From the IMG/VR virus record IMGVR_UViG_3300012940_001458, positions 1-42,060 of that record: a stretch of DNA of 42,060 nucleotides. The stretch is one strand, 5' to 3'. The notes under the pieces are model-generated. The model did no database searches and was not told the origin of the DNA. It worked only from the letters and a program-made list of their open reading frames with translations. Each line of letters starts with the position of its first letter. Positions within the stretch are counted from its first letter, which is position 1. Below, one piece after another: positions 1,956 through 35,978 of this stretch. Position numbers and translations under genes: made by a program. The stretch is from a virus (taxonomy: Duplodnaviria; Caudoviricetes).

Positions 1956-2097
1956 CCTCAAGTTCGCTGCACTCACTATAGGCGCCATTATCTATTTGGC
2001 GCTTATGAGTTTTTGGGCGTTTGATGACGGGAAGTCTGGACTGCCCAACCCGATAAGAGCATTCGGGCAGTCCATGCATGAACCGCCCGTAATGTAA
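1942..2097 (+). CDS. 51-aa single-TM peptide (not in ORF track), candidate Iap-like polymerase inhibitor
   Basis: GTG at 1942 with GGGAGG at 1929-1934; MIKHNLKFAALTIGAIIYLALMSFWAFDDGKSGLPNPIRAFGQSMHEPPVM*; overlaps the end of the wzy-like gene. Confidence 0.7.
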   Translation: MIKHNLKFAALTIGAIIYLALMSFWAFDDGKSGLPNPIRAFGQSMHEPPVM

Positions 2098-2109
2098 CGC
2101 ATCCCTCTA

Positions 2110-2460
2110 TCAGAGCAGCTTGTAATTGAAGCTGAATTTTATCGTGTAGGCGGTCGTGCCAGGGGCAACGAAACGCAGCTGGGCACGATCGTTGGTGGCA
2201 TCACCTTCGACAAGGCCGTTCGTTCCGGCAACCGAGCCTGACGCCACCCCAGACAGGTCATTCGCCGACGCAAGGGCGGAAACTACCGGCAGCGAGATAC
2301 CAATCGTCGTCGCAGCTGCTGCCGTTGGCGTGACCGCTAGCGAGCCCCAGCATTGGACCTCATCGCCCTGACGGGAATAATAGCAAACTGCCGCCGTCGA
2401 ACTCGCCACGTTGTCGACCCCGGTAAGTGTTGGCGTCCAAGAACCGCGAGAATTTCGGCC
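2110..2460 (-). pseudogene. Orphan C-terminal domain of a tailspike/tail fibre
   Basis: Frame stays open upstream of the GTG at 2409 and reads GRNSRGSWTPTLTGVDNVASSTAAVCYYSRQGDEV..., the GxWTPxL...YxRxGxxV...F-x-Y pattern of tail-protein C-termini; no clear RBS; abuts the acyltransferase stop. Confidence 0.6.
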
Positions 2461-2461
2461 C

Positions 2462-4303: not shown

Positions 4304-4348
4304 AGATCGCCATTTACCGTGAGAGCCGGCGTGCGTCTAGTCTTCCGA

Positions 4349-6730
4349 CTAAGCCACGACCAGGCTCTGCCGGATCCATTTTCCACCCCTGCGGGCGAAA
4401 CTAGCGGTTAGCATCTGGCCCGTTGTCATGGCCGATCCCGTGAGCGCTGAACCGTCCTGCGCCACAAAATCCGTGCCCCATGAGACAGTAATCGAGGCGT
4501 TGGCAACGAACTGGTATCGGACCTCGCAATTTGCCGGCGTGTTCGCGGCAGCGGTGTTTGCGACGGTGAAACTGGTGCCGCAAGCCGTCACGTAATAATC
4601 GGAATAGACCTCGGGATACGTCAGCGCCGATCCAATATTGGCATAGGTATCGTTGAACGTCCTGCGCTTGCCAAACTCTGTCCCGAGGTTGTTGCGGCGG
4701 GACACGTCAACCAGCATGCCTCGCTGCCCGGTCACGCTGGTTTGGCCAAAAGCTTCGGCGTCGAAATAGCCGACCTTGCCGCCGATAGCAGAGGCGCCAT
4801 CGTACCAGGTATAGAGCTGGTTGTGCATGATCTCCGGCGTTCGGAGCGGATCGATCAGACGTTCGACAACCAGATTTTTCCCGAGGTTCACGATGCCGCA
4901 CCGCTGCGTTGATGTAGCAGCTGCATCCGAGCCATTGTCAGGTACATGCGCCGTCCCAATGGTCAGACCGTCGCCGGTAGCGGCATACACCAGGCCGGCG
5001 CCAACGTTATCCTCGGAACGAAGGTAATCGATGCGGCTCGCATCGTCCGCCAACCAATTGATGCCGTGATTACCATTCGTGTATGCGTGGATGTGAAAGG
5101 CATGCAGATAGCCAGACGTGAAATTGAAGCCGTATCGACCGTTATGCTGCAACCTTACAACGCCAGGCCATTGGGCATCGCCAAAGGCCCCATTGATGCC
5201 ATCGCGCCCGCAATTGTATATCTCAACAAAGCCTTTGAGCATGATCTGATTGTTGTTGCCGCCACTACCAGCGTTCGTCTGAATGCCGTCGATCGTGAAA
5301 TCTCGAATGTAAATATTTTCTAGTTGCACATCCTTAATCGTGCCAATGCCGATGCCAACGCTAGCAAGGCCGCTGCCGTGCAACATGACGTTGCGCAGGG
5401 CCATGCCGGAGAAGACGCGATTGGATGCGGTATACGTGCTGTCAAAAAGGACAAAGAACGACTGCGCCCCCGTGGCTCGGAGGATCGTTCCTCGGAACTG
5501 GCGATCAGAAGGAGGCGTTGAGCCGCCATCTGGCCCGGTAAAGCGGGCAGCCGGCATCACCCCCACGATGCACTTGCCATCGTCAACACCGTCTTCGGTG
5601 TCGGGGCTGTTGTTGAAGCTCACGTAATCGATCAGGTATTCCTTGCCGAGCAGGCGAGTGATTGATCCGATATGCGAGCGCTTCATGGCTGTGCGCACGT
5701 TGGAGGCATCGCTACCCCAATGCTCTGGCCGCACGTCCTGTGTTACACCGATAGAGATCGTGCCGGTTCCAGACTCGACAAAGCATTGCGTTGGGGTATC
5801 GCAAGCATAGCCGCCGCCTAAAACAATTGCAGCATTGTCCGCTTTGATGGTGCCGCCTTGGAAGACCGGAATAGCATTCAGCGTGAGCGCTGTGGCAAGT
5901 CTGATTGAGGCCCCGCTTGATACGGCAAACGCATCAAGACCAACCGCATCAATCCCTGCCAGAGCCGTACTGTCGTCTGTCGTTCCGTCGCCGGTAACGC
6001 CGAACCACGCCGGGGAAGCCAAGCCACTGATTTGCCGCACCCACGCCCCGCTGGCTCCGGTCGTATCGCTGGTCGGAGGGACATAAATGCCCTGCTGCGT
6101 ATCGGCAGTGACAAGCGCTTCAAGGTCTAATCCGAGTTCGAAAGCCTTTTCTGGAGACAGCCAATAGAACAGGCCTTTGCGCCCCGCTTCCATGAGATCG
6201 ATAGCCACATAATCCGTGCCATCCATCCCCGCCAGTGCGGTGCGATCGGCGGCCACGCCCATGATCTTGTTCTTGAGCGTGGTGGCGAGGTCACCATCCT
6301 CAACAGGGCTTTGAACTGCCGTGTCTGCCAACGCCCCCTGTGCTGCTGTAGCAAAGTCTGTCGTATCGGCGGCAGCGGCAGTGCCGAGCGTCGGCTTATT
6401 GGTGAGGTCGTCGTAGTCACCGCTGGTTGCCACGCTAGCAAGATCATCCGGCTGCACCGCCGTATCGGCCCTATCGCCTTGGGCTTTCGAGGCTGTAGAA
6501 ACACCAACCTGGGCAACAATGGCCTGATTGGTCGTAAGCGGCGTCATGGCCTTGGTGGCCTGTACGCCTGCCTCGGCTTCGGCTTGGGAGGCGAGCGGAC
6601 GACCAGCAGCAACACCTTTTGCCCATGTCACCGACGAGACGGTAACGCCATCATCGCTCACAACTTCATCGGTTGCGTTCGGCGTATCATTAGACGGCAA
6701 AGCGGAAGGACGAACAATTTCACCAGCCAT
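4349..6730 (-). CDS. Tailspike / receptor-binding protein with pectate-lyase-like right-handed beta-helix
   Basis: N-terminal fibre motifs (ASQAEAEAG..KAMTP, SGDYDDLTNKP); WFGVTGDGTTDDSTAL beta-helix cap; repeated NGxxGI rungs. Confidence 0.88.
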   Translation of the reverse strand: MAGEIVRPSALPSNDTPNATDEVVSDDGVTVSSVTWAKGVAAGRPLASQAEAEAGVQATKAMTPLTTNQAIVAQVGVSTASKAQGDRADTAVQPDDLASVATSGDYDDLTNKPTLGTAAAADTTDFATAAQGALADTAVQSPVEDGDLATTLKNKIMGVAADRTALAGMDGTDYVAIDLMEAGRKGLFYWLSPEKAFELGLDLEALVTADTQQGIYVPPTSDTTGASGAWVRQISGLASPAWFGVTGDGTTDDSTALAGIDAVGLDAFAVSSGASIRLATALTLNAIPVFQGGTIKADNAAIVLGGGYACDTPTQCFVESGTGTISIGVTQDVRPEHWGSDASNVRTAMKRSHIGSITRLLGKEYLIDYVSFNNSPDTEDGVDDGKCIVGVMPAARFTGPDGGSTPPSDRQFRGTILRATGAQSFFVLFDSTYTASNRVFSGMALRNVMLHGSGLASVGIGIGTIKDVQLENIYIRDFTIDGIQTNAGSGGNNNQIMLKGFVEIYNCGRDGINGAFGDAQWPGVVRLQHNGRYGFNFTSGYLHAFHIHAYTNGNHGINWLADDASRIDYLRSEDNVGAGLVYAATGDGLTIGTAHVPDNGSDAAATSTQRCGIVNLGKNLVVERLIDPLRTPEIMHNQLYTWYDGASAIGGKVGYFDAEAFGQTSVTGQRGMLVDVSRRNNLGTEFGKRRTFNDTYANIGSALTYPEVYSDYYVTACGTSFTVANTAAANTPANCEVRYQFVANASITVSWGTDFVAQDGSALTGSAMTTGQMLTASFARRGGKWIRQSLVVA

Positions 6731-6746
6731 GGGCTAGCTCCATACG

Positions 6747-6769
6747 AAAATGCCGCCTCAAAGGGCGGC
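6747..6769 (-). terminator. Intrinsic terminator before the tailspike
   Basis: Minus strand GCCGCC-CTTTGA-GGCGGC-ATTTT. Confidence 0.65.
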
Positions 6770-6796
6770 GGAGGTGGTCGGGGATTAGGGAGGCGG

Positions 6797-7591
6797 TCAG
6801 GTCTTGATCAGCACCGGATAGGCGATGTTTTTCACGCGCGTTTCAGGAGCACCGGTATAGGTCAGCGTTACATCGTGCTCGTGGTCAGGGACCGTATCAG
6901 AGCGCGCAGTCCCGAGATCGCGGCCCGTGGAGGTAATGAAACCTTGAGTTGACGGGCCGTGGCTGGTTGTCGCTGGGAGGTCAACCCTATGCCCTCCCGC
7001 TTCATCTGTCGTGCCGGAGATAGAGTGCGTCTTGATCGCGTCAGCCTGCACCGTGCCAATGCCGCGCCCATCGCTGATCGGACGGATAAAATATCCATTA
7101 TCTGCATAGAGGTTCGGCAGTGTGAAGGTTGTCGAACCGTCGCCCGGCCCGTACTGCCCGTGGGTCTTGGCTCCCTCGCTTGCGGCAAGGTTCGTTCCGG
7201 CCTGCACACTCGCCCACAGATTGGGATGATCAGCGCGGGGCACTGTCTGTCCATTGGCATAAAGCCACCCCTCAGGCGCGTCGGAGTAGCCCACGGTTTC
7301 GGGGACCATGATGCCGGGGAAAAATCCGCTCACGGCCGCAATCGCGTCCTGCATCTGGGATAGGGTCACATAGTCCTGCTGATCTACGGCATCGCCGGCG
7401 CCGGTCACCCGCCTGCCATTGGCGTTCTGGTTGCCGGTCCATGCCTTGCGCCCATCGGCAAACAAGCGACGTGACAGCGCCGCAGAGGCGTCCTGCACGA
7501 ACAGATTGTGTTGCGAGGCTAGTGCGGTCTGCCCGTCAACGGCAGTTGTGCCGTTCGGGGCTGTGTAATTGCCCTGCGGATCGTCAGACAT
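6797..7591 (-). CDS. Tail fibre with phage tail-collar domain
   Basis: APEGWLYANGQTVPRADHPNLW and GDGSTTFTLPNL collar motifs, HxH motifs, ETRVKNIAYPVLIK C-terminus. Confidence 0.9.
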   Translation of the reverse strand: MSDDPQGNYTAPNGTTAVDGQTALASQHNLFVQDASAALSRRLFADGRKAWTGNQNANGRRVTGAGDAVDQQDYVTLSQMQDAIAAVSGFFPGIMVPETVGYSDAPEGWLYANGQTVPRADHPNLWASVQAGTNLAASEGAKTHGQYGPGDGSTTFTLPNLYADNGYFIRPISDGRGIGTVQADAIKTHSISGTTDEAGGHRVDLPATTSHGPSTQGFITSTGRDLGTARSDTVPDHEHDVTLTYTGAPETRVKNIAYPVLIKT

Positions 7592-7604
7592 TCATGTCTC
7601 CATG

Positions 7605-7630
7605 AAAAAGCCCTCGCTTGCAGCAAGGGC
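7605..7630 (-). terminator. Intrinsic terminator before the tail fibre
   Basis: Minus strand GCCCTTGC-TGCAA-GCGAGGGC-TTTTT. Confidence 0.8.
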
Positions 7631-7654
7631 CGAATGCGGGTATTTATCAGGGCG

Positions 7655-7843
7655 ATGATCCGCCCCTTTGATATCGTTGCGCTCCTCGGGAGCGCTTGGT
7701 TTATCGGCTACATGACATGGGTCGGGACCAACCCCGCCCTACATGACATTGGCTATCTGGCATTCCTGCACTTGGCAGTTGCCTTCCTGCCCAATGCGAT
7801 AATCTTCGCGTGGGTCTTTTGGCCTCGAAAGCGCCGCCGCTAG
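7655..7843 (+). CDS. 62-aa two-TM membrane protein (moron), candidate superinfection exclusion factor
   Basis: Two hydrophobic helices and an RKRRR tail; TTGCAG-17-TATTTA at 7618-7646 lies 8 nt before the ATG at 7655 (ORF track starts at 7634). Confidence 0.6.
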   Translation: MIRPFDIVALLGSAWFIGYMTWVGTNPALHDIGYLAFLHLAVAFLPNAIIFAWVFWPRKRRR

Positions 7844-9420
7844 TTCAGCCCTTGCAATCGCAATAGCTCCTGCAAGACAGGAGATTGCGGCTCATTCTGG
7901 TTGGCTGCACTGCCCATGATCAGCGCCGCCAAGGCCTTTTGCGTATCTGGCGCGACGAGCGGGATGTCCTGCTGAGCGCCCGTCGCTAGAAGCGAGCGCA
8001 ACTTGTCGGCTCGCTTGATCGTGCCGCGATCGGCCAGGAACTTTGCCCCTTGCGCGACAACCGGAACTGCCGCCATGGCCGGGTTATGGGCGATAGCCCC
8101 AACATTCAGGGCCGTCATCAGCCCGTTTCCGCCCGGCGCCATCTTGCCGACGCCGCGCAACAGGTTTTCCCCCCTGCCCTGCGTAATGAGGAGCTTGAGC
8201 GCCGCCAGTTCGTCGGGAGAGTACCCCATCGTGCGCTTGGGGTTGTCGAGGATCGCTCGCGCCTTCTGCCGGACGGCATTGTTGACATTGCCACCAGAGC
8301 CCGAGGATGCGGCGGCATTACGCGCCTTGTCCATGGAGCGGTCGAAGTCCTCAACCTTACGATAGCGTGTGTTCAGGGCGCGTGCCTGGTTGATCAGGCT
8401 GTTCGCAGCAACCGGATCGCCGGCCAGAACGTCCTTACCCCCGGCCTTGGCGATAAAGTCATCAAGGGCATTGTTGAACTGATAGCCCCAATAACGCTCC
8501 GCGCCATCCGACGACTTAATGAGATCGCGCGCAATCGTCTGCCGCAGCTCGTCCAGTTGTCCAAGCGTAGGCGAAGTCCCTGCCAATCCCTCGATTTCCG
8601 CCAGCATGGATGCCGCCTTAGGGTGGCGCATCGGGTTGATTTTCGCTCCTGCCGTCTTCATGTCCTGCACAAGCCGATTCATAGCTTGCGGGGCATATTG
8701 CACGCCAAGATCATCGGCCGCTTTGTAGGCGGCGCTTTTTTGAGAACGCAATTCGTCCAGTGTCGGGGCAGCTACCTTCATCCCGCCGCGTTCGATGGCA
8801 TTTGAGATAGCCAGCGGGGTCATCCCGCCAATGGCCTCACCAGCTATCTCAGCATAGGGATTGTCCGGGAACGCTTGCTGCATCCCTGCTGCGCCTGCTC
8901 CGGCTCCGAGGGCGCTCGCAGCTTCGGTTACAGCCACACGCGCCGGAGAAGTGGCCTTTGATACTGTCCCCAATCCGGGGATAAGCATCGCGCCAGCCTC
9001 TTGCCCGACACGGCGGGCGAATCGCCCCATGCCGTCATCGGTTTCCGGCTTGATCGCCCCAAAAGTGTCGGCAAGATCGCGGTAGCGCGCGCCCATGTCA
9101 GGCAGGATGCTTTCAGTCGGCAGCTGGACATTGCCGCCCATCGAATTGACTACAGCGGGGCCGATGGAGCGCAATCCAAGCTCTACCGTGTTCGGCAGGC
9201 TCAGGGTGTTGGCGATGCCCTCATTGACACCGGATAGCCCTTGCATGAGCGGGCTATTGGGATCTGATGGCATGCCGCTCAGAGCGCCTGCCCCGGCGTC
9301 AATGCTCGGATCGATGAGAGGCAAGCCCATGAAGCCGGTCGGGCGCCCCTGCGGCTGCGCTGATGCCTGCGCCTGCCGGGCCCGGGCAAGAGCAATCGCC
9401 CTCTGCTGTTCAAGCGTCAT
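7840..9420 (-). CDS. DNA ejection (internal virion) protein, P22 gp16-like position
   Basis: Ala/Gly-rich helical protein, last of three ejection genes; ATGA overlap places the start at 9420. Confidence 0.75.
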   Translation of the reverse strand: MTLEQQRAIALARARQAQASAQPQGRPTGFMGLPLIDPSIDAGAGALSGMPSDPNSPLMQGLSGVNEGIANTLSLPNTVELGLRSIGPAVVNSMGGNVQLPTESILPDMGARYRDLADTFGAIKPETDDGMGRFARRVGQEAGAMLIPGLGTVSKATSPARVAVTEAASALGAGAGAAGMQQAFPDNPYAEIAGEAIGGMTPLAISNAIERGGMKVAAPTLDELRSQKSAAYKAADDLGVQYAPQAMNRLVQDMKTAGAKINPMRHPKAASMLAEIEGLAGTSPTLGQLDELRQTIARDLIKSSDGAERYWGYQFNNALDDFIAKAGGKDVLAGDPVAANSLINQARALNTRYRKVEDFDRSMDKARNAAASSGSGGNVNNAVRQKARAILDNPKRTMGYSPDELAALKLLITQGRGENLLRGVGKMAPGGNGLMTALNVGAIAHNPAMAAVPVVAQGAKFLADRGTIKRADKLRSLLATGAQQDIPLVAPDTQKALAALIMGSAANQNEPQSPVLQELLRLQGLN

Positions 9421-11237
9421 TGCCATAGGGCGCGATCCTCTGGTGACATGAACTTCCAAAGCGCAGGGTCGCCCGACCACCCTTCAGGCGCAGTCGGGGC
9501 GCTGTAATCGATGCTGGACTTTTGGGACCGTGAACTGCCTGGCTGCTCAAGCTCGCCCGTATCCAGATTGTACCGAGGCCCATTCCCCTTGCCGTCGATA
9601 ATGTCGCGATAGATGTTAGACACGCGCTTGAGATTGTATTGAAGCTGAGCCGTATCTTGGCCTGGGTCCAGATTACCAATTGCGGCCTGTAGCAGCTTGT
9701 TTTCTTGCTCGGAAACCTGCCCAAGTGCGCCGCCAGTCGGGGATGCGTCACGCATGGCCTGCAAGCGGTCAAAGCCGGCATTGGCCTTCACCGTGTCGAT
9801 AAGGGCGTTGGTCTGGTAGGCGGGTAGGCCTGGCAGGCCCTTGGTGACGGCAGCCCCCATGCCTGTGGTCAGCATCGGATTGGCATCGATCTGCTGCAAG
9901 GCGCGGTCAATGTCGTCAACAACGATCCCGGCAGATGTAGCTTTTGAGGTCTGGCCCGCCGCCTGCTGTTCTTGAGCGAGGCGGGCCTTTTCATCTTGAG
10001 GGCCGTTCGGGACGGTGACGATTTCCGGCAACCCGGTTTGCGGATCAACCCACACCGAACCATCTGGATTGCGGCGGTAGTCCTGTCCAAAAGGTGCCGC
10101 CGCAAACTGTTGGCCATTGGGGCCGACGCTGATGTTCGTCGCCCCCGCCTTGCGCATATCCTTCTGGAAGTCTGCAAAGGAGCCTTGATAACCCTGCCCG
10201 ACCGCGAAGTTATATTCGCGAATGTCGTCGGTATCCTTCGGCGTCGGGTTGCGCAGCGCATCGATTTCAAGCTGCGATTTCTCAAGACCAAGCTGATATG
10301 CCGGGTCTTGCTGCTTTAGCTGCGTTTCGATCATCGTGTTGATCGCGCCACGCTGCCCTTCCGAGAGCCAGGGGTTGGCGGAAAGCATCAGAAGCTCGTT
10401 GAGGTCGGGACCGGACTGTTGCGGAGGAAGGGAACCCCCGCCGGGAAATGGCTGGCCTGCCGCCATCGCAGTAGTTGCTTGCTCTGGCGTGTTGGCGACA
10501 TCCGGAAGGTTCAGCGAACGGGCGATGCTGCTCACTGCCGGCAAATACTCGCTGCCCGTAGCGTAGCCGGACTCACCTAGAGCCTGCAATTGTGCATCAA
10601 GGCCGCGAGCATTACGCAAGGCGCTATATCGAGGGTTAGAGAGGATGAAGTCGGCATAGCCAGCAACGCTGTCTTCCGGGCTGTCATAGGCCCGGAAACT
10701 GTCCTGCGTGCGAATGCGCCTGCCGTTGACTTCCTCGTCGGTCGCAAGCGTGTTGCCGCCCGGCATCCCATGGCTCTTGATGCCAAAGAAGTTGTTCCCC
10801 GGCGCATGCCGTCCCCATCCTGTCTCCTGTGCCGACTGCGCAATGATGATGCGCGGATCGATGCCGGTGCGCTTCGAGGCTTCCAAGGCGCTCGGGAGCA
10901 GCGCATTGACGAACTCTTGCTGATCACCAGAAAACGAAACCGGGGAGGAACTTGCATCAGGTGAAGCCGTCGCAGGCCCATATCCGCCAAGGGCCGAGGG
11001 GTCGCCCATCAACGCCTTGGTGAAGGCGTCCTGAGCGCTCGCTGTGCCTGCCTGTTCCGCCGCATCGGCGCGCTGATTGGTGATGTTGGCGACGATTCCG
11101 TCAGCAATGGCGCCGAAGCCCTCGCCCACGTTCTGAGGCGACAGCGAGCGCCCCATGATCGCCTCGGCAAGAGCGCGCTTACGGGCGACGGATTGCGGCG
11201 TTTCGCCTGTGTTGCCACCGAAGATATACTGAGCCAT
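9417..11237 (-). CDS. Ejection protein with GH73 glucosaminidase (FlgJ-like) peptidoglycan hydrolase domain
   Basis: IIIAQSAQETGWG, NNFFGIK, FRAYDSPEDSV..Y, NPRY and GYAT motifs. Confidence 0.88.
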   Translation of the reverse strand: MAQYIFGGNTGETPQSVARKRALAEAIMGRSLSPQNVGEGFGAIADGIVANITNQRADAAEQAGTASAQDAFTKALMGDPSALGGYGPATASPDASSSPVSFSGDQQEFVNALLPSALEASKRTGIDPRIIIAQSAQETGWGRHAPGNNFFGIKSHGMPGGNTLATDEEVNGRRIRTQDSFRAYDSPEDSVAGYADFILSNPRYSALRNARGLDAQLQALGESGYATGSEYLPAVSSIARSLNLPDVANTPEQATTAMAAGQPFPGGGSLPPQQSGPDLNELLMLSANPWLSEGQRGAINTMIETQLKQQDPAYQLGLEKSQLEIDALRNPTPKDTDDIREYNFAVGQGYQGSFADFQKDMRKAGATNISVGPNGQQFAAAPFGQDYRRNPDGSVWVDPQTGLPEIVTVPNGPQDEKARLAQEQQAAGQTSKATSAGIVVDDIDRALQQIDANPMLTTGMGAAVTKGLPGLPAYQTNALIDTVKANAGFDRLQAMRDASPTGGALGQVSEQENKLLQAAIGNLDPGQDTAQLQYNLKRVSNIYRDIIDGKGNGPRYNLDTGELEQPGSSRSQKSSIDYSAPTAPEGWSGDPALWKFMSPEDRALWQ

Positions 11238-11239
11238 GG

Positions 11240-12226
11240 TTATGCCCTCAAGGCGAGATCATAATCGACGTAGCGCAGGCCCTTGCGGTGCTTGACGGCC
11301 TGTGGGTTGTCGCGCTCGACTTCCGAGGCCATGAGGCCGATGCGCTTCGGCGCGCTGTCCGGTTCGCCCTTATAGCGATAGGAGTAGATGCCAAGGTCTT
11401 TGCCGGGGACCGTGCCGATCTTCTTCTTGGCCCTCTTGGCATTGTCATCGCTGAGCGAGATCAGCTTGCCGGCGCCGCCCATCAAGCCCCCCAAAAGGGC
11501 CTGATTGTTGGACCATTGATTGACGCGGTTCTGATAGTCGGACTGAATGATGCCAGCAACATCGGTCGTTGGGATTTGCGGCTGCGTCGTGTTGACGTAA
11601 TTGGGTTGGCTGACCTGTGAGCCGGAGAGCAGCGCCGAAATCGTATTGACCGGCAGCGTGTATTGGTCTCTGGCTTCGTTGTAAGCCTGCGAGCGGCCCG
11701 ATAACGCCAACTGGTTCAACTGGTCGGTATTGGCGTTCGTGAGCCGCTGCATCTCAGCGTTCCATGCCGCCGATCCCTCGCGAATGCCGGAATTGAGCAG
11801 TTTTGTCCGCAACGCTTCCTCGTTGCGCTGCTGCTGCGGCAGGATACGCCCCGAAGCGATGTCAAAGGCCCAATTCTCAGCGTCGTGATTGTCGAAGCTG
11901 AACGGGTCCTGTAGCCCTGCCTGCGCATTGCTGCTTAGGGTATTCGCCAGCCCAGCCAGATTTCCCTTGGCGCCGTTAACCTGTTCTTGGATGGCCTGCT
12001 GTTCCGGCGAAAGCGTCTGCGTGGCCGTGAAGGTCGGCACGTCATAGGTTTTGCCGGTATAAGGGTCCTTCCAGGAGTACGAGCCGGTCTGATCGTATGT
12101 CAGCGAGCCATCAGGCGTAATCTGGTTCACATTGCCCAGATTTGCATTGGCAATGGCCGTGGCGACGTTTGTGCCGGTAGAGGCTGCGGCGGTCTCTTTG
12201 GGATCAGGGGCTTTTGGGGCGCACAT
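11240..12226 (-). CDS. Ejection/pilot protein with C-terminal peptidase S74-like (intramolecular chaperone) domain
   Basis: Gln/Asn-rich body; C-terminal SD..K..I..IYSYRYK..IGLMASEVE..P.AV..VDY. Confidence 0.75.
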   Translation of the reverse strand: MCAPKAPDPKETAAASTGTNVATAIANANLGNVNQITPDGSLTYDQTGSYSWKDPYTGKTYDVPTFTATQTLSPEQQAIQEQVNGAKGNLAGLANTLSSNAQAGLQDPFSFDNHDAENWAFDIASGRILPQQQRNEEALRTKLLNSGIREGSAAWNAEMQRLTNANTDQLNQLALSGRSQAYNEARDQYTLPVNTISALLSGSQVSQPNYVNTTQPQIPTTDVAGIIQSDYQNRVNQWSNNQALLGGLMGGAGKLISLSDDNAKRAKKKIGTVPGKDLGIYSYRYKGEPDSAPKRIGLMASEVERDNPQAVKHRKGLRYVDYDLALRA

Positions 12227-27459: not shown

Positions 27460-27590
27460 TTCCCCCTCTCCTTTGCAGCAATGCGGATTTTGGATTTGGA
27501 CGAACTGATACGCTTCTTGTTCGGATGCCAGCCTTTGGGCTTGGAAAGACCAAGAGCGCGTTCAATGGATTTGGAGCGGATGGGCGTCAT
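27456..27590 (-). CDS. 44-aa basic peptide
   Basis: MTPIRSKSIERALGLSKPKGWHPNKKR...; ATGA and GTGA overlaps on both sides. Confidence 0.5.
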   Translation of the reverse strand: MTPIRSKSIERALGLSKPKGWHPNKKRISSSKSKIRIAAKERGK

Positions 27591-28570
27591 GCGACCGCCT
27601 CGGCAAAGAGGTTGTCGGTCTTGGCCTTTTCGAGTTCGGCAAGATTGCGAACAGCCTGGGCGAAGTAGGAGGCTTTCAGTTCAAAGCCGATGCCCTTACG
27701 GCCCATTTCGACGGCGCTATAAACCTCGCTGCCGATCCCAAGGAACGGGGTCAGAACGGTTTCGCCGGGCAGTGACCATAGGTCGATGCAGCGCTCGATA
27801 ACGTCCAACTGCAGGGGCGAGATATGAACCTCGTCCTTTTCGTCGCGGGCGTTGCGATACTGCAGGGTACGGGTCTGGTTAATGTCCATCCAGACGGGGG
27901 AAGCGTAGCGCTGCCACACAAGGATCGATTTCCACTTGTCATAAGGCCAAGGCTCGCGGCCCTCAGCACGGAAGGCCGCAACCTCTTTGGCGTATGCCTC
28001 GGGGCTGACATCAACATCGGTGCCAATGTAGCGATCGAATGGGCCGGAGACGGGCGCGGCGTTATCTCCCGGCTTGCGGAACGTCACGATGTAGTCTGCA
28101 AGGCCCTGCCCGCTTATGGTGCTGTCTTTGAGGACTTGGGCATGCAACAGGCGAATGGATTTCGTGCGCTGCTGCGCAACAACCGGGTCTTTCCAGATGC
28201 AGACTTCGGAGTGGAAAATCCAGCCGGCGTTGACATAGGCATTGACCACTTCGCCGCGAAAGTCGCGCATGCCGATGAAACCGTCGCGCGTCTTGCTGGT
28301 CGGCAGTTGCATGCAATGAACGCTATGCAGGCGACCCGGCTTCGTTACACGCAACAATTCCTGGATCAGAAAAGCGTAGTGGGTCCAAAAGCCGTCTTTG
28401 TCATTGTTGGAAATGTCGCGGTCGGAATTGCTGAACCGGTAAAGCCCTTCAAACGGAGGGGAGTGAATACCGAAATCAATGCTGTCGCCAGAAACGGCGC
28501 GGATCAACTCGCAACTGTCGCCGTGATAGATGGCATAGCGGTCGGTCAAGACCTGATCGATGACCTTCAT
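27587..28570 (-). CDS. N4/N6 DNA methyltransferase (beta class)
   Basis: Motif IV HSPPF precedes motif I TPFLGIGSE; GRKGIGFEL. Confidence 0.92.
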   Translation of the reverse strand: MKVIDQVLTDRYAIYHGDSCELIRAVSGDSIDFGIHSPPFEGLYRFSNSDRDISNNDKDGFWTHYAFLIQELLRVTKPGRLHSVHCMQLPTSKTRDGFIGMRDFRGEVVNAYVNAGWIFHSEVCIWKDPVVAQQRTKSIRLLHAQVLKDSTISGQGLADYIVTFRKPGDNAAPVSGPFDRYIGTDVDVSPEAYAKEVAAFRAEGREPWPYDKWKSILVWQRYASPVWMDINQTRTLQYRNARDEKDEVHISPLQLDVIERCIDLWSLPGETVLTPFLGIGSEVYSAVEMGRKGIGFELKASYFAQAVRNLAELEKAKTDNLFAEAVA

Positions 28571-29952
28571 GCTGCAACTCCAATCCACTCGGGGAGCGAC
28601 ATAGGCACGGTCGGGAAATAGTCTGACCGCGTGCGCGACATGCCGCGAATGTTCTCTGCCGATAGGTCGGCCATATGCTCGACAAGAGCCGCCGCCATCC
28701 GTTCGGCATCGGCTTCCTTGCGGCGCAGGTTTGCCACTACGGCGCCTTCTGTTTCGGCGCTGATGAAATGCACGGTGACGGGCTTCTTTTGCCCGAATCG
28801 CCAGAAACGGCGTTCGGCCTGGTAAATCTGCTCGAAGCTGTCATTGAGCCCGACAAAGCCGGTATCGGCGCAGTGCTGCCAGTTCATACCGAAGCCGGCA
28901 ATTGACGGCTTGGTCACCAGAACGCGGATTTCGCCGTTCGTGAAGGCGCGCAACTTCGCCTCCTTGGCGTCGTCGCTATCAGATCCCCGCACATCGACGG
29001 CATCGGGGATCGCGGCGCAAAGCGCTTCGCTTTCGGCGTTGAGGTTGCACCACCACACAAACGGCCGGTTGCCATGGGTGATCGATGCAGCGAGTTCAAC
29101 GCGCTCCGATACGGTATCGCGGCGCGCAGCCATGCGCTCTTGCAGGGTTCGCGCTTCCATCGGGAATAAGAGGCCCGTGTCAATGCTTGGGGCGTATTCT
29201 GCTGCAACGACATGCTGCTGCCTTTTGATCGGTGGCAGGTCATACCCATCATCGGAATATCCGAGGTCGGAAGGCTTGCGCAGCATGACGGCCCATGAGG
29301 CCATCCACTTCCAGAACTCGGTTTCGGCATGGCCTTTGAGTCGCCACTTCTGTGTGTCGCCGCCATCATGGGTGAAGAACGTCGCCAGCATATCCGTGTA
29401 GGACATGGCGCCGATGAACTCGGCATGATTGCCAAGCTCCATGAAGTCGTTCGGAGCCGGCGTAGCAGTGGCAGCGAGCCGGAACGGCACATCGGCGCAA
29501 TCTTCAATGAGCTTGGTGCGATATTTCCCGTCCGTGCTTTTGAGGATGGAGCTTTCATCCAGAGCAATGCCGCCAAGCTCGCCTATCGCGAACCTGTCGA
29601 GCTTCTGGTAGTTGGTGACGTCGATAACGCCATCCGACCGGGCCGACACGACGCGAGCAGGAATGCCGAAATTGTCGGCCTCGCGCTCGTGCTGATGCGA
29701 GACTGCCAATGGCGCCAGCAACAGGACGGGCTTCTTGGTGTAGCGCGATACTTCATGCGCCCACACCAATTCCATCAAGGTCTTGCCGAGACCTGTGCCG
29801 GCGAAGATCGCCGCTCGGCCCCTACGCAGCGCCCATTGCGTAATGTCCGCCTGGTGCGGGAACATGTAGCTCGGAAGCTGGATGCGCTCGATAATACCGG
29901 TATCGGGATCGGTCATGCGCTTGCTCTCGAGGAATGAAGCGTATTCGCTCAC
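28567..29952 (-). CDS. SF2 (SNF2-like) helicase
   Basis: GTGLGKT, LDESS, ATATP, GFGMNWQ, QAERRFWRFGQ; GTG start at 29952. Confidence 0.92.
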   Translation of the reverse strand: MSEYASFLESKRMTDPDTGIIERIQLPSYMFPHQADITQWALRRGRAAIFAGTGLGKTLMELVWAHEVSRYTKKPVLLLAPLAVSHQHEREADNFGIPARVVSARSDGVIDVTNYQKLDRFAIGELGGIALDESSILKSTDGKYRTKLIEDCADVPFRLAATATPAPNDFMELGNHAEFIGAMSYTDMLATFFTHDGGDTQKWRLKGHAETEFWKWMASWAVMLRKPSDLGYSDDGYDLPPIKRQQHVVAAEYAPSIDTGLLFPMEARTLQERMAARRDTVSERVELAASITHGNRPFVWWCNLNAESEALCAAIPDAVDVRGSDSDDAKEAKLRAFTNGEIRVLVTKPSIAGFGMNWQHCADTGFVGLNDSFEQIYQAERRFWRFGQKKPVTVHFISAETEGAVVANLRRKEADAERMAAALVEHMADLSAENIRGMSRTRSDYFPTVPMSLPEWIGVAA

Positions 29953-31427: not shown

Positions 31428-32096
31428 TCATGCCGCCACCGAATGCAGGTTATGGCCTGTATTTTGAGATCGGATTTCCCGGATATGACCTGTAAAATTT
31501 CCCCACTGGTCAGCCATAGCAGCCGCGATACCTTCAAAGGTGCGGCTGCGGTCGGCTTTCCGGTTTGGTCCGGGCGGCATGCGGAATACGCGCTGCTCGC
31601 GGCCCTCTACGATGTCGGTGGCCATGAGCGGCGGCAGGCCGCGAAGCCAAAGACACGTAGCCTTGGTTTCTCCGTGGCCGAACATCCAGGGTTGGATGAT
31701 CTGCGTCGGCTCAGGAATGCTGAACAGGCGCTTGGGATGGCCGAGCATGATCGGGTTTTCGACCGCGACCATCGGGGCCGGCGCATTGAGCATCAGGAGA
31801 AAGAATTGAGCAGCAGCGCCCATCTTTGCCCAGCGATCGGGCTCTGGACCGTTGGCAGCGTTCATGCCGGCGTAGAGGTGCTTGGCGCCGCTGTTGGCGA
31901 GATACGTGCATTCGGGGTGGGCAATGATCAAATCCCAGCCGCCGGCATAAGCCGCCGCGACGGCATCACCCTGGATATGGAACGGGCTGCCATCATCAGC
32001 AGGGACAAGATCATTGCTCCAGGCATCGTGACCGAGGCGCCGGAAGGCGGAACGGACAATGCCAGAACGCTCGCATGCAACGAGGACGCGGCTCAT
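31428..32096 (-). CDS. Short phage DNA cytosine methyltransferase-like protein
   Basis: VLVACERSG, DLIIAHPECTYL (PxC), ENP, K.TCLW, RSRTFEGIAAAMADQW. Confidence 0.8.
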   Translation of the reverse strand: MSRVLVACERSGIVRSAFRRLGHDAWSNDLVPADDGSPFHIQGDAVAAAYAGGWDLIIAHPECTYLANSGAKHLYAGMNAANGPEPDRWAKMGAAAQFFLLMLNAPAPMVAVENPIMLGHPKRLFSIPEPTQIIQPWMFGHGETKATCLWLRGLPPLMATDIVEGREQRVFRMPPGPNRKADRSRTFEGIAAAMADQWGNFTGHIREIRSQNTGHNLHSVAA

Positions 32097-32179
32097 ATGG
32101 GCCACCCGGCAATCGCCGGCAGCAGCGCAATGACTGCAATACCGACAAGGATGATGAATACGTCAGATGAGCGGATCAT
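32093..32179 (-). CDS. 28-aa single-TM peptide
   Basis: MIRSSDVFIILVGIAVIALLPAIAGWPI*; ATGA overlaps at both ends. Confidence 0.55.
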   Translation of the reverse strand: MIRSSDVFIILVGIAVIALLPAIAGWPI

Positions 32180-33024: not shown

Positions 33025-34062
33025 TTACGCCTCCAAGTCCGGCAGCTTGCCGCCAAGGATCGGCATGCGAGATACGTGCTCGCCACGACGATGAGCGTTC
33101 CAGCCGCGAAAGATCAGTTCGGTTCGCTCTGCAACCGTCAGGCCGCTCTTGTCCATGAGGCGGTTGCGGACATAGAGGATGGGATCACCGCGCTCCAGAT
33201 TGGTGCCGCTAATCAGCGCCTCAATGAAGTTTTCAGCATCGGCCGGATTGGCCCATTTGGTGAAATACCAGCGGCAGAAGGCGAGGACCGGCCGGCCACC
33301 GATCTTGCGAACGCCATACTGCGGGATGCGCTGCACGTGCCGCTCAAGTGCGCCGTTGCTGGCGATGAATGCCATAAGCTCGGCCTTGGTCGGCCGCATG
33401 TCCTTGCTGCGGGTGGTGAAGCCGTACTTTTCCACCTGCCATGCGATATAGGCGGCGCTCGCCAAGATCGGGGCGCCAACATGCCCGTCCATGGTGAGAT
33501 AGTCGCTGATCAGGCGGTTCTTGCCCTGGTCGAGAGTGGTCCGGGTTTCGCGCTCAGGACCGATAACGAGGATGGCCTTGATCGGCATCTTTGCTGCGAC
33601 AACAGCGGAGCAACGATGCTGCCCATCGTTCAGGAAACCGTCATTGGAGACGATGACGCTCTCACCGTTAAAGGTCCAATTGTCTTCCTTGATGTCGCGC
33701 GCGAATTGCTCAACGAGGTTTTCGCTGATCTTCCGGTTTGCCGGATTGCGCTCCAAAAGCGCGGTCGCGAGATCGGGAGTGATTTCCACCACCTGAGTGG
33801 TGACGGTTCCCGCCGCCTTGCTGACCTGATCGGTGAGCCACAGAGAGGCGGAACGGACGCCAGAAATAGTGTGAAAGCGTGCAACATTTGCCGCCTTCTG
33901 CTTGCCCGCAATGGGCGTTTCGGCTATAGTCTGCATTGCATTACCTTGAATGGGGCGGGCGCTTCCGGGCGCGCCGCCCTTTCCTTTGGGCGCCGCCGGA
34001 ACAGCGATGGATGCCCGCATTTCGCGGGCAGAATTGATGAGACGGTCAGCGGCCCGCGCCAT
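33025..34062 (-). CDS. ParB/Srx-superfamily DGQHR protein (start may be 33936)
   Basis: ITPDLA..LLERN..NR, W.FNGESV, LNDGQHR, LDQG..R. Confidence 0.8.
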   Translation of the reverse strand: MARAADRLINSAREMRASIAVPAAPKGKGGAPGSARPIQGNAMQTIAETPIAGKQKAANVARFHTISGVRSASLWLTDQVSKAAGTVTTQVVEITPDLATALLERNPANRKISENLVEQFARDIKEDNWTFNGESVIVSNDGFLNDGQHRCSAVVAAKMPIKAILVIGPERETRTTLDQGKNRLISDYLTMDGHVGAPILASAAYIAWQVEKYGFTTRSKDMRPTKAELMAFIASNGALERHVQRIPQYGVRKIGGRPVLAFCRWYFTKWANPADAENFIEALISGTNLERGDPILYVRNRLMDKSGLTVAERTELIFRGWNAHRRGEHVSRMPILGGKLPDLEA

Positions 34063-34298
34063 TACGCCACCTCCCCATTCGAGGCAGGCTCGTTGCTGAT
34101 GAAGATGCGGGAGAGGTCTGGGCGGAGCTCATGGCGGGAAATGCCGGTGAGGCCTTCCACCTTCGTTACCTTGTCGTACGGAACCCGGCGTTTATCGGTT
34201 TCGTAGCGATGCCATTGCACCCCACTGACACCAACGAGTTTCCCAGCGTCTTCAAGGCTAAGGCGGTTTTGTGCGCGCCATTGTTTGAGCTTCAACAT
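34062..34298 (-). CDS. cro: Cro-like HTH repressor
   Basis: XRE HTH ending GISRHELRPDL; divergent from cI; ATG 7 nt after a -10, probably leaderless. Confidence 0.85.
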   Translation of the reverse strand: MLKLKQWRAQNRLSLEDAGKLVGVSGVQWHRYETDKRRVPYDKVTKVEGLTGISRHELRPDLSRIFISNEPASNGEVA

Positions 34299-34305
34299 GC
34301 CGCAT

Positions 34306-34381
34306 GACTTACCATGACGGTAAATCGCGCGCAAGCGTTTTTACCATCATGGGGGACTACGCCGCGATGCCATCTTGGTAA
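34306..34381. promoter_or_regulatory. Right operator region: three TTACC-N5-GGTAA-type operators overlapping PR
   Basis: TTACCATGACGGTAA 34309-34323, TTACCATCATGGGGG 34341-34355, ATGCCATCTTGGTAA 34367-34381; minus-strand CTTGCG-18-TAAGTC. Confidence 0.85.
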
Positions 34382-34390
34382 AAGCGCGGA

Positions 34391-34771
34391 ATGACCAAGC
34401 GCTACGAGCTAGAGTCCGCCCCGAAAATGCCCCGCTACTTCAAGGAGTGGCGGGACCTGAGGGGCTGGACGCAACAAGAGCTTGCAGACAAGATGGAAAC
34501 CACCGTTGCTATGGTTTCGCGCATCGAAAGTGGCGAGCGGGATTGGGGCAAGAACTACCTTGAGGCCTTCGGCCACATCATCGGCTGTCATCCGTTGGCG
34601 CCGCTTCTTTCTCCGCCGCGTGCAGACGTTGACGTTTCCGCACTGCTCGTCGCGATGGGAATGCTGAGTGAGTTTTCGGAAGAATCCTTGGAAAGGGCGT
34701 CCCGCAGCCTGCAATCTCTAGCCCGCGCATCTGAGCGAGAACAACGTCCCGCTGCCAAGGCTCAGCCTTGA
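34391..34771 (+). CDS. cI: CI-like repressor (XRE HTH, no S24 peptidase domain)
   Basis: FKEWRDLRGWTQQELADKMETTVAMVSRIESGER; only 126 aa. Confidence 0.88.
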   Translation: MTKRYELESAPKMPRYFKEWRDLRGWTQQELADKMETTVAMVSRIESGERDWGKNYLEAFGHIIGCHPLAPLLSPPRADVDVSALLVAMGMLSEFSEESLERASRSLQSLARASEREQRPAAKAQP

Positions 34772-34805
34772 TCCATGCCGCGATGAACGCCTCTGCCTTT
34801 GTCAT
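34578..34805 (-). CDS. Candidate SOS-induced antirepressor (75 aa) overlapping cI on the opposite strand
   Basis: GGGGGCAGGA RBS; MTKAEAFIAAWIKAEPWQRDVVLAQMRG; directly downstream of the LexA box. Confidence 0.5.
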   Translation of the reverse strand: MTKAEAFIAAWIKAEPWQRDVVLAQMRGLEIAGCGTPFPRILPKTHSAFPSRRAVRKRQRLHAAEKEAAPTDDSR

Positions 34806-34818
34806 TTCCTGCCCCCAT

Positions 34819-34863
34819 GTTCTTATTTTGTTCACATTGCGGCAGGAATGTATTCCTAGTCAA
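34819..34863 (-). promoter_or_regulatory. LexA-repressed promoter facing cI
   Basis: GTTC-TTATTTT-GTTC at 34819-34833 (alphaproteobacterial SOS box) just downstream of minus-strand TTGACT-17-GCAATG. Confidence 0.75.
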
Positions 34864-35037: not shown

Positions 35038-35298
35038 ATGACCAATATGAAATTCGTCACTGTCGAGATTATCAAGCGCAAGAACTCAGATCTTTTCATC
35101 GGCACCAGCGAGCAGATGAAAGGGCTTTATGTCCATGGCAGGTCTGTGAAAGAACTTGAAGCCCGTATTCCTGGCGCAATCAAGGAAGTCCTTGAAGCGG
35201 AAGGGAAAGTGGGCGTTAAGGTGCTGCCTGTGGCAGACGAAGTTCCTGATGCGTTTATCTCGTCCGGTGAAACACGCAAGTTCGCGCTTGCTGCTTAA
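35038..35298 (+). CDS. HicB-like antitoxin (no DNA-binding tail)
   Basis: FIGTSEQMKGLYVHGRSVKELEARIPGAIKEVLE HicB-fold pattern; GGAG RBS. Confidence 0.65.
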   Translation: MTNMKFVTVEIIKRKNSDLFIGTSEQMKGLYVHGRSVKELEARIPGAIKEVLEAEGKVGVKVLPVADEVPDAFISSGETRKFALAA

Positions 35299-35495
35299 TG
35301 ACGATCGATGAATATCGATCCTGCATTCGGGCGCTCGGCCTTACGCCAATTAAACCCTCCTACTCTGGCGCGACGCTCCACGCAGATCGAGACGGTGAGA
35401 TACACCGCATCATTGACCCGGAAGAGCTAAGCCCAGAGGAGCGCTTGGACTTCTACAATCTGATAAAACGCCGGCTCGGATTTACCGACCACTAG
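35298..35495 (+). CDS. Divergent HicA-like toxin candidate
   Basis: 65 aa alpha-beta-beta-beta-alpha pattern, TAATG-coupled to the HicB-like gene; lacks canonical GSH. Confidence 0.45.
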   Translation: MTIDEYRSCIRALGLTPIKPSYSGATLHADRDGEIHRIIDPEELSPEERLDFYNLIKRRLGFTDH

Positions 35496-35602: not shown

Positions 35603-35653
35603 TTACCATCATGGATATTTTCTGCTTGCATCATTTTACCATCATGGTAAGTT
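35603..35653 (+). promoter_or_regulatory. PL promoter with two operators
   Basis: TTACCATCATGGATA 35603-35617, perfect TTACCATCATGGTAA 35636-35650; CTTGCA-17-TAAGTT. Confidence 0.85.
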
Positions 35654-35690: not shown

Positions 35691-35978
35691 ATGGGGCTGA
35701 TCCAAAATTACCACGACGCTGATGGGCAAGCTGTTCAGCCGTACTTCGCGGCCTTCATGATCGAGTTCGGCTATTCCCGCGCCTCCGAGCCATTCGAGCG
35801 GGACGGCCACAACGGGCAATACATGGAGTGGAACGCCGCTCGCTGGGCTGAGTTCGAGCGCGCCAAGGGCTACCCGGTCGCTCACCATACCCGCAACTGG
35901 CGCAGTGCCGAATTCATCGAATGGCTTGACCACCGCTCGTTTGACTTCGCCGCCCGCAATTTCATCGAAGCCGCCTAG
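35691..35978 (+). CDS. Hypothetical protein, first gene of the PL operon
   Basis: MGLIQNYHDADG..., aromatic-rich. Confidence 0.65.
   Translation: MGLIQNYHDADGQAVQPYFAAFMIEFGYSRASEPFERDGHNGQYMEWNAARWAEFERAKGYPVAHHTRNWRSAEFIEWLDHRSFDFAARNFIEAA

What the first reader, a model, noticed from the sequence alone, without database searches (positions are those of the whole stretch)
34391..34863. LexA-boxed promoter fires antisense through a non-cleavable cI: candidate alternative induction switch
Seen: CI is 126 aa, HTH only, with no S24 autopeptidase. 48-62 bp past its stop is GTTC-TTATTTT-GTTC (34819-34833), covering the likely start site of a minus-strand TTGACT-17-GCAATG promoter. An RBS and a 75-aa ORF (34578-34805) follow, overlapping cI antisense by 194 nt. 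Known: GTTC-N7-GTTC is the alphaproteobacterial LexA box, and phages 186 (Tum), N15 (AntC) and Gifsy use LexA-controlled antirepressors. Inference: one SOS promoter could make an antirepressor, make antisense RNA or transcriptional interference against cI, and read on towards cro and the lytic operon.
Basis: partly seen in the sequence, partly recalled or inferred. Interest (0 to 1): 0.85.

Follow-up and report, generated by a model that had tools for sequence, protein, structure and literature searches.

The report
Hidden SOS-gated prophage antirepressor gene
A small unannotated gene overlaps, on the opposite strand, the tail of a prophage repressor gene that has no self-cleavage domain; it lies behind a motif matching the alphaproteobacterial DNA-damage (LexA) site, is conserved as a protein in related prophages, and likely wakes the prophage after DNA damage by binding the repressor, as a known Bacillus phage protein does.

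Summary
Observation confirmed. cI (126 aa) is HTH-only. The GTTC-N7-GTTC box, minus-strand TTGACT and 75-codon antisense ORF are where stated. Two related prophages (CI 72% and 54% identical) keep box, -35, RBS and ORF. The peptide family has 8 members with a conserved core of about 28 aa. Where the core overlaps cI, selection is on the peptide frame, not the CI tail. The same box precedes lexA in 5 of 5 Devosiaceae genomes. The layout (box, small convergent gene, S24-less cI) recurs with unrelated peptides (44 of 70 loci of a second family are boxed), and three other peptides resemble their own repressor's C-terminal hairpin. Best reading (0.65): a LexA-gated small antirepressor that likely binds CI; antisense RNA and read-through are secondary. 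Limits: this peptide does not match its own CI tail by sequence, the complex prediction is only weak support (0.57 vs control 0.02), and nothing shows expression. It works like AimX-AimC of Bacillus phage phi106 (2025 preprint) but lacks arbitrium. Six paper searches found no alphaproteobacterial case. This scan reported the same layout on other DNA several times.

The parts
34062..34298 (-). cro-like HTH gene heading the lytic (replication, packaging, lysis) operon
   Evidence: Pfam HTH_31/HTH_3; downstream genes are replication, terminase, portal, capsid and endolysin
34309..34381 (.). three TTACC-N5-GGTAA-type sites (34309-34323, 34341-34355, 34367-34381) between cro and cI: inferred OR operators
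   Evidence: similar sites upstream of cI in L026 and L017; CI binding untested
34391..34771 (+). cI-like XRE repressor, 126 aa, no S24 domain; predicted HTH (about res. 17-64), helical hairpin H82-92/H97-116 (nt 34634-34738), unstructured tail
   Evidence: repressor role inferred from position
34578..34805 (-). unannotated 75-codon gene (candidate antirepressor); conserved core about res. 3-30 (nt 34799-34716), predicted helices 3-13 and 16-33, variable tail
   Evidence: homologues in L026, L017, L259 and P0033-P0036; pS>pN in this frame in 6 of 6 pairs; model
34812..34816 (-). ribosome-binding site GGGGG, 6 nt before ATG 34805
   Evidence: purine-rich counterparts before the start codons in L026 and L017
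34819..34833 (.). alphaproteobacterial LexA-type box GTTC-N7-GTTC over the presumed transcription start
   Evidence: kept in L026, L017, L345, L348; two such boxes upstream of lexA in 5 of 5 Devosiaceae genomes
34834..34863 (-). predicted promoter: -35 TTGACT 34863-34858, -10 GCAATG 34840-34835 or CAATGT 34839-34834; spacer holds palindrome AGGA-N6-TCCT (34844-34857)
   Evidence: TTGA invariant in 5 of 5 aligned promoters, palindrome in 3 of 5; not listed by the consensus scan
35038..35495 (+). two small genes (35038-35298 HicB/DUF1902-like; 35298-35495 unassigned): probable toxin-antitoxin pair in a variable slot
   Evidence: feature score 0.93, structure TM 0.6-0.74, lead level; other TA-like pairs in the same slot of L026 and L017
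35603..35722 (.). three further operator-type sites (35603-35617, 35636-35650, 35708-35722) before the early recombination/integrase operon: inferred OL
   Evidence: Erf, YqaJ and integrase downstream

Best explanation
The minus-strand gene 34805-34578 is a conserved small-protein gene behind a LexA-type box, and it likely encodes a DNA-damage-induced antirepressor of this prophage's non-cleavable CI. Shown: the box, promoter-like hexamers, RBS and ORF; their conservation; selection on the peptide frame; absence of S24 in CI; use of the same box at lexA in the probable host family. Inferred: (1) host LexA represses the promoter in the lysogen; (2) DNA damage and RecA-driven LexA cleavage (established knowledge) release it; (3) the helix-turn-helix core of about 30 residues binds CI, probably taking the place of the partner C-terminal hairpin in the CI dimer, as SinI does to SinR and AimX to AimC (this step alone about 0.5); (4) CI leaves OR and OL, so cro and the lytic and excision operons turn on. 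The overlap pairs each protein's working part with the other's dispensable tail. Antisense effects on cI would be secondary.
For: Box, TTGA, RBS and ORF are kept in the two closest relatives with DNA. The shorter CIs without a tail in L018, L108-L112 (six loci, three with the same protein) have no box within the flank. Tails of 5 of 7 long-tailed CI homologues can encode the antisense PWQRD motif at the same position; 0 of 15 short ones can; chance 4 of 20,342. A profile search of 1.84 billion proteins gave 5 hits, all 59-74 aa proteins with the same core; one stands alone, away from cI, in G113. Over core codons 5-29, pS 0.50-1.00 against pN 0.16-0.33 in the peptide frame in 6 of 6 pairs, and pN>=pS in the CI frame; over CI res. 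66-110 the CI frame is the conserved one (28 of 45 against 10 of 44). Two strict boxes lie upstream of lexA in 5 of 5 Devosiaceae genomes and one upstream of recA in 2 of 5. Cro-selected survey: strict box within 400 bp past cI in 8 of 32 S24-less against 2 of 37 S24-containing repressors (Fisher p=0.037). Second peptide family (phrog_32610): box upstream in 44 of 70 loci, reversed control 1 of 70, background 4 of 673 windows; all 45 convergent HTH genes detected are at most 177 aa with no S24 hit. Peptides of L209, L345 and L366 match their own CI C-terminus (rank 1, 1, 2 of 36; 2, 5, 2 of 2000 shuffles). AF2 gives a short-helix/long-helix pair in both the CI C-terminus and the peptide. Complex prediction: weak support, 0.57 against best control 0.02, contacts at least 89% consistent, partner pLDDT at least 71; the mark was reached by 116 of 157 solved and 2 of 215 mismatched pairs, but at 0.60 or under by only 18 solved and both mismatches. 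Precedent: phi106 AimX.
Against: The window's peptide does not match its own CI C-terminus by sequence (rank 17 of 36; 1235 of 2000 shuffles as good); L026, L017, L259 and L348 are not significant or marginal (270, 225, 318 and 81 of 2000). Profile-profile comparison is weak (probability 1.7%, E 0.03). Against a CI C-terminal profile the four family members score z 0.3-3.5, while an unrelated control ORF scores z 5.3. 24 of 32 S24-less repressors have no strict box nearby, and LexA-boxed convergent genes also occur beside S24-containing repressors (L358, L400, L012), so the layout does not by itself imply antirepression. The survey is ranked by likeness to this cro, hosts are unknown (non-alphaproteobacterial hosts could inflate the contrast), and 11 of 80 loci were dropped (10 with no cI found, 1 too short). 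The G113 homologue sits in a left operon with no adjacent box. The promoter fails the consensus scan.
Confidence: 0.65

Rival explanations
1. The peptide is real and SOS-induced but acts on something other than this CI (a host protein, a co-resident element's repressor or another phage protein); its place beside cI reflects a variable slot for SOS-regulated cargo.
For: No sequence match to its own CI C-terminus; a homologue occurs in another element's left operon; many phage LexA-boxed small genes have no HTH gene nearby; boxed convergent genes flank S24-containing repressors too.
Against: Box and motif track the long-tailed CI subfamily; boxes are enriched next to S24-less repressors; none of the ORFs scanned in the window matched an antirepressor or repressor-protease family (not every ORF was scanned); weak complex support.
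Confidence: 0.19
2. The working product is the transcript: convergent transcription or antisense RNA lowers cI expression, or reads through into cro; the peptide is incidental.
For: 194-nt overlap; no convincing terminator on the minus strand before cro (one weak hairpin without a U tract, z -0.03); near-identical promoter cassettes drive unrelated ORFs in L017, L345 and L348.
Against: Protein-level selection on the core, a stand-alone homologue, no Rfam match; in phi106 and phiW23 the start-codon knockout removed the effect (passages).
Confidence: 0.09
3. The peptide binds CI but as a co-repressor or damper that stabilises lysogeny or delays lysis under SOS.
For: A predicted contact does not give the sign; P1 Lxc is a small co-repressor (PMC11323111 passage).
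Against: A non-cleavable CI needs a damage input and none other was found among the ORFs scanned; the characterised LexA-gated small phage proteins read about here promote lysis.
Confidence: 0.05
4. The box and ORF are chance by-products of the cI tail.
For: Strict boxes occur 4 times in the window, 1.19 expected; the exact ORF is not a called gene in the protein collection; a single-sequence search found no homologue.
Confidence: 0.02

Closest known systems
AimX-AimC-AimL module of Bacillus arbitrium phages, phi106 family (Kabel et al., bioRxiv 10.1101/2025.11.23.689978; read: abstract, sections 10 and 11 in full, 12 passages; supplements closed)
   Same: Short HTH repressor not responding to RecA, divergent cro-like gene, small helical ORF convergent with and overlapping the repressor's 3' end, LexA site just upstream (phi106), proposed occupation of the C-terminal dimer site.
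   Different: No AimR/AimP found next to the module here; alphaproteobacterial direct-repeat box; different peptide (no homology test against AimX was run); overlap 194 nt against 30 bp; function here untested.
SinI-SinR of Bacillus subtilis (PDB 1b0n, top Foldseek row for the CI model, E 1.9e-3; mechanism as stated in the Kabel discussion)
   Same: XRE HTH plus short helical C-terminal oligomerisation domain; a small helical partner as proposed mimic.
   Different: Chromosomal biofilm switch, not LexA-gated (recalled); the structural match is weak and mainly HTH; no SinI Pfam hit for CI or peptide.
LexA-controlled antirepressors of enterobacterial phages: Gifsy GfoA/GftA (PMC3121763, passages), 186 Tum and SPC32H Ant (cited in PMC9437464, passages and reference titles), N15 AntC (recalled)
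   Same: Non-cleavable repressor inactivated by a small protein whose promoter carries a host LexA box.
   Different: Gifsy antirepressors lie far from the immunity region; different LexA box; no Pfam or PHROG match of this peptide to any family.

Membership tests
LexA-gated phage antirepressor (functional class) | Repressor lacks the S24 self-cleavage domain | tested here: met
   model shows HTH plus two helices only
LexA-gated phage antirepressor (functional class) | Host-type LexA box over the promoter of a small gene, conserved | tested here: met
   host family inferred from CI homologues in Devosia/Paradevosia, the host's own lexA was not examined
LexA-gated phage antirepressor (functional class) | Small gene is a protein-coding gene under selection | tested here: met
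LexA-gated phage antirepressor (functional class) | LexA binds and damage induces the transcript | not testable with these tools
   needs EMSA and RNA data
LexA-gated phage antirepressor (functional class) | Peptide binds and inactivates the repressor | tested here: inconclusive
   complex prediction weak support, 0.57 against 0.02; no functional test possible
AimX-AimC extended arbitrium module | aimR-aimP directly upstream of the small ORF | tested here: not met
   upstream lie a HicB-like gene, a 65-aa gene and the early operon; no AimR-like family among ORFs scanned
AimX-AimC extended arbitrium module | Small ORF convergent with and overlapping a single-HTH repressor that is divergent from a cro-like gene | tested here: met
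AimX-AimC extended arbitrium module | Sequence homology to AimX | not tested
SinI-type oligomerisation-domain mimic | Peptide resembles the cognate repressor's C-terminal domain in sequence | tested here: not met
   rank 17 of 36, 1235 of 2000 shuffles; met for L209, L345 and L366 in the same test
SinI-type oligomerisation-domain mimic | Same helical architecture and binding at the dimer site | tested here: inconclusive
   matching helix lengths; hhalign E 0.03 in register; one search gave no interface

The most novel reading that the evidence does not exclude
Alphaproteobacterial prophages with non-cleavable repressors use a swappable cassette, a LexA promoter plus a 'headless repressor' micro-gene written antisense into the repressor's own dispensable tail. 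At least three unrelated peptide kinds fill it (helical C-terminal mimics, phrog_32610, a Cys-rich family), and compact integrative elements such as the one in G113 carry the same peptide, possibly to derepress other prophages. That would be a widespread, arbitrium-independent induction route missed by gene callers.
Probability: 0.3. Interest if true: 0.72.

Novelty: new variant of a known kind. Interest (0 to 1): 0.52.

Why it matters
Many alphaproteobacterial prophage repressors lack the RecA-cleavable domain (32 of 69 in the survey here), so how they sense DNA damage is open. This locus gives a compact, testable candidate: a box, a start codon outside cI that can be knocked out cleanly, and a 30-residue peptide. 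It assigns a likely role to an unnamed small-protein family and to phrog_32610, and shows that real genes hide antisense in repressor tails where gene callers drop them. The logic itself is already demonstrated in Bacillus and enterobacterial phages, which caps the surprise.

Tried and rejected
Single-sequence homology search with the 75-aa ORF: nothing. Pfam/PHROG scans of the peptide and its relatives: nothing beyond two E~0.08 rows. Atlas on residues 1-35: no usable hit. Fold search of the peptide model: best Z 3.5, uninformative. Foldseek of CI: no match at E<=0.001. Rfam: none. No RNA holder listed for the region, which is no evidence on expression. CI scan of genome contigs: 1 useful locus of 80. 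Peptide searches: 2 credible hits in 243 family genomes, 2 borderline hits inside other frames rejected; 1 of 401 order genomes, the seed itself; only L017's contig among viral contigs. Box-plus-TTGAC pattern scan (121 matches from 3 of 64 parts; 40 loci with short flanks): one further cI-convergent case (L209), one unexamined short locus (L257), the rest other SOS genes or chance. PBC5, RHph_I1_23 and ppBjS10J-1 have related short repressors but no box nearby. Rejected: sequence mimicry of the cognate CI tail; GTG 34835 as start (upstream of the presumed start site); the spacer palindrome as a CI operator (it does not match TTACC-N5-GGTAA). Literature: six searches returned no alphaproteobacterial LexA-gated antirepressor; the library lacks most subscription journals, and bioRxiv supplements (AimX sequences, Supp. 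Figs 3-6) could not be read.

Full report
Setting. The window is a whole 42,060-bp virus record with a lambdoid layout: integrase, Erf and YqaJ on the plus strand to the right; cro, ParB-like, replication, terminase, portal, capsid and endolysin genes on the minus strand to the left. The same CI lies on a 1.22-Mb contig, so it is a prophage. Its closest named relatives are from Devosia (72%) and Paradevosia; the host family Devosiaceae is inferred from this.

Observation. CI has HTH domains only; AF2 gives an HTH, a helical pair H82-92/H97-116 and a loose tail. Six TTACC-N5-GGTAA-type sites, three between cro and cI and three before the early operon, mark the inferred OR and OL. The box alone is not convincing (4 strict matches, mean 1.19, 4 of 100 shuffles as many), and the promoter fails the sigma-70 scan.

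Conservation. The two closest relatives with DNA, L026 (72%) and L017=L107 (54%), both keep the box 8-22 bp past the cI stop, a minus-strand TTGAC, an RBS and an antisense ORF with the core F-x-x-A-[WY]-x-x-AEPWQRD. Six loci with tail-less CIs of about 110 aa (L018, L108-L112; three carry the same protein) have no box. For CI homologues without DNA, the tails of 5 of 7 long forms can encode antisense PWQRD at the same place, against 0 of 15 short forms and a chance rate of 4 of 20,342; three of those five are the sequences the motif came from. A four-sequence profile found 5 proteins among 1.84 billion, all 59-74 aa with this core and unrelated tails. One is a stand-alone gene in the left operon of a compact integrase-cI-cro-DnaB element in G113. 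The family is rare: 2 of 243 family genomes, and only the seed among 401 order genomes.

Selection. Over core codons 5-29 the peptide frame shows pS 0.50-1.00 against pN 0.16-0.33 in 6 of 6 pairs with no stops, whereas the CI frame shows pN>=pS. Over CI residues 66-110 the CI frame keeps 28 of 45 residues and the peptide tail 10 of 44 (window against L026 only). Each protein's working part therefore overlaps the other's dispensable tail.

The box. GTTC-N7-GTTC is given as the alphaproteobacterial LexA motif in PMC8565304 (passage). Two strict boxes lie upstream of lexA in 5 of 5 Devosiaceae genomes and one upstream of recA in 2 of 5. The host's own lexA was not examined.

Generality. Of 80 viral loci chosen by likeness to cro (best 80 of 530), a cI was found in 70 and one had too little flank. 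A strict box lies within 400 bp past the stop in 8 of 32 S24-less and 2 of 37 S24-containing repressors (8 of 29 and 2 of 29 after dereplication; Fisher p=0.037 on the raw table). Hosts are unknown and the sample leans to relatives, so this is suggestive only. The boxed S24-less cases carry convergent ORFs overlapping cI, of three kinds: short helical peptides (L341=L017, L345, L348, L366, plus L209), phrog_32610 (L335, L336) and a Cys-rich family (L359, L367). For phrog_32610, 44 of 70 loci (33 of 57 dereplicated) have a strict box within 260 nt upstream, against 1 of 70 for the reversed pattern and 4 of 673 background windows; a convergent HTH gene was detected in 45 of 70, all at most 177 aa and without an S24 hit, and the other 25 were not examined further. 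L017, L345 and L348 share a near-identical promoter cassette in front of unrelated peptides and repressors. Against the link: boxed small genes also flank S24-containing repressors (L358, L400, L012, overlap at most 6 nt where measured), and 24 of 32 S24-less repressors show no box.

Mechanism. The peptides of L209, L345 and L366 align to their own CI C-terminus (rank 1, 1, 2 of 36; 2, 5, 2 of 2000 shuffles). The window's does not (rank 17; 1235 of 2000), nor do L026, L017 or L259, though all four score best on the L366 repressor among the eight tabulated. hhalign places the core on CI helix 97-116 but weakly (E 0.03), and a C-terminal profile gives z 0.3-3.5 with a control at 5.3. AF2 gives the peptide helices 3-13 and 16-33 at pLDDT above 90, matching the CI pair in length. 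The complex prediction gave weak support: 0.57 against a best control of 0.02, at least 89% contact agreement, partner pLDDT at least 71; at scores of 0.60 or under only 18 of 157 solved complexes and both passing mismatches fell in this band, and likeness to solved SinR-SinI or AimC-AimX complexes could contribute. Binding to CI is thus plausible, not shown, and the dimer-site step is inferred mainly from analogues.

Known systems. Kabel et al. (bioRxiv 10.1101/2025.11.23.689978; abstract, sections 10 and 11, passages) show for phi106 a LexA site, a 29-aa ORF overlapping the end of a short HTH repressor in antisense, loss of response when its start codon is replaced by a stop, heterodimer formation, and likeness to SinI-SinR. 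This locus works like that module but is not a member: aimRP is absent. Gifsy antirepressors (PMC3121763, passages), Tum and SPC32H (PMC9437464, passages) share the logic but not, for Gifsy, the position; N15 AntC is recalled only. PMC11323111 (passages) reviews such small proteins. Six searches found no alphaproteobacterial example. Earlier notes of this scan describe the same layout on other genomes, one alphaproteobacterial; they were read after my reading was formed, are unchecked and are not counted as support.

Verdict. Real, conserved, unannotated gene; most likely a LexA-gated small antirepressor of a non-cleavable CI (0.65); other target 0.19; RNA-level switch or read-through 0.09; co-repressor 0.05; chance 0.02. 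New variant of a known kind; interest 0.52.

Noticed in passing
window 34844-34857; L017 and L345 promoters: Palindrome AGGA-N6-TCCT fills the promoter spacer in the window, L017 and L345 but not L026 or L348; it matches neither the CI operator nor the LexA box and may be a second regulator's site.
   Followed up: partly
window 35038-35495; L026 4614-5241; L017 3899-4721: The slot between the box and OL holds a different toxin-antitoxin-like pair in each prophage: HicB/DUF1902-like, Gp49 plus HI1420 antidote, DUF4258 plus HTH.
   Followed up: partly
L259 (G113:C11) 1875-11500; peptide 4416-4613: Compact integrase, small genes, short cI, cro, DnaB element carries a stand-alone homologue of the peptide in its left operon with no adjacent box; possibly a satellite-like element. 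Its ends and any structural genes were not mapped.
   Followed up: partly
L265-L334: phrog_32610 (unknown function) is convergent with short S24-less repressors and boxed in 44 of 70 loci; about 26 lack a strict box, and L007 has a different inverted repeat there.
   Followed up: partly
L359 near 1690-1995; L367 near 1783-2094: Cys-rich ORF family (about 100 aa, TPGC motif) behind a LexA-type box, overlapping S24-less repressors by about 240 nt.
   Followed up: no
L138-L217 (GC-rich subset): Many phage contigs carry TTGAC plus a LexA-type box 14-16 nt downstream in front of small unknown genes or Y-family-polymerase-like genes (label from sequence appearance, not scanned), with no repressor nearby.
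   Followed up: no
window 34762-34818 (-): An out-of-frame ATG directly after the box opens an 18-codon ORF overlapping the RBS and start of the peptide gene; no counterpart noted in L026.
   Followed up: no
window 34806-34848 (+): Inverted repeat flanking the box (arms 34806-34820 and 34834-34848); the plus-strand RNA past the cI stop folds better than shuffles (z -2.3) and could end the cI transcript.
   Followed up: partly
window 2462-4303 (-): O-antigen acetylase-like (Acyl_transf_3 plus SGNH) moron gene.
   Followed up: no
window 27587-28588 and 31428-32105 (-): Two DNA methyltransferase genes in the early lytic operon.
   Followed up: no
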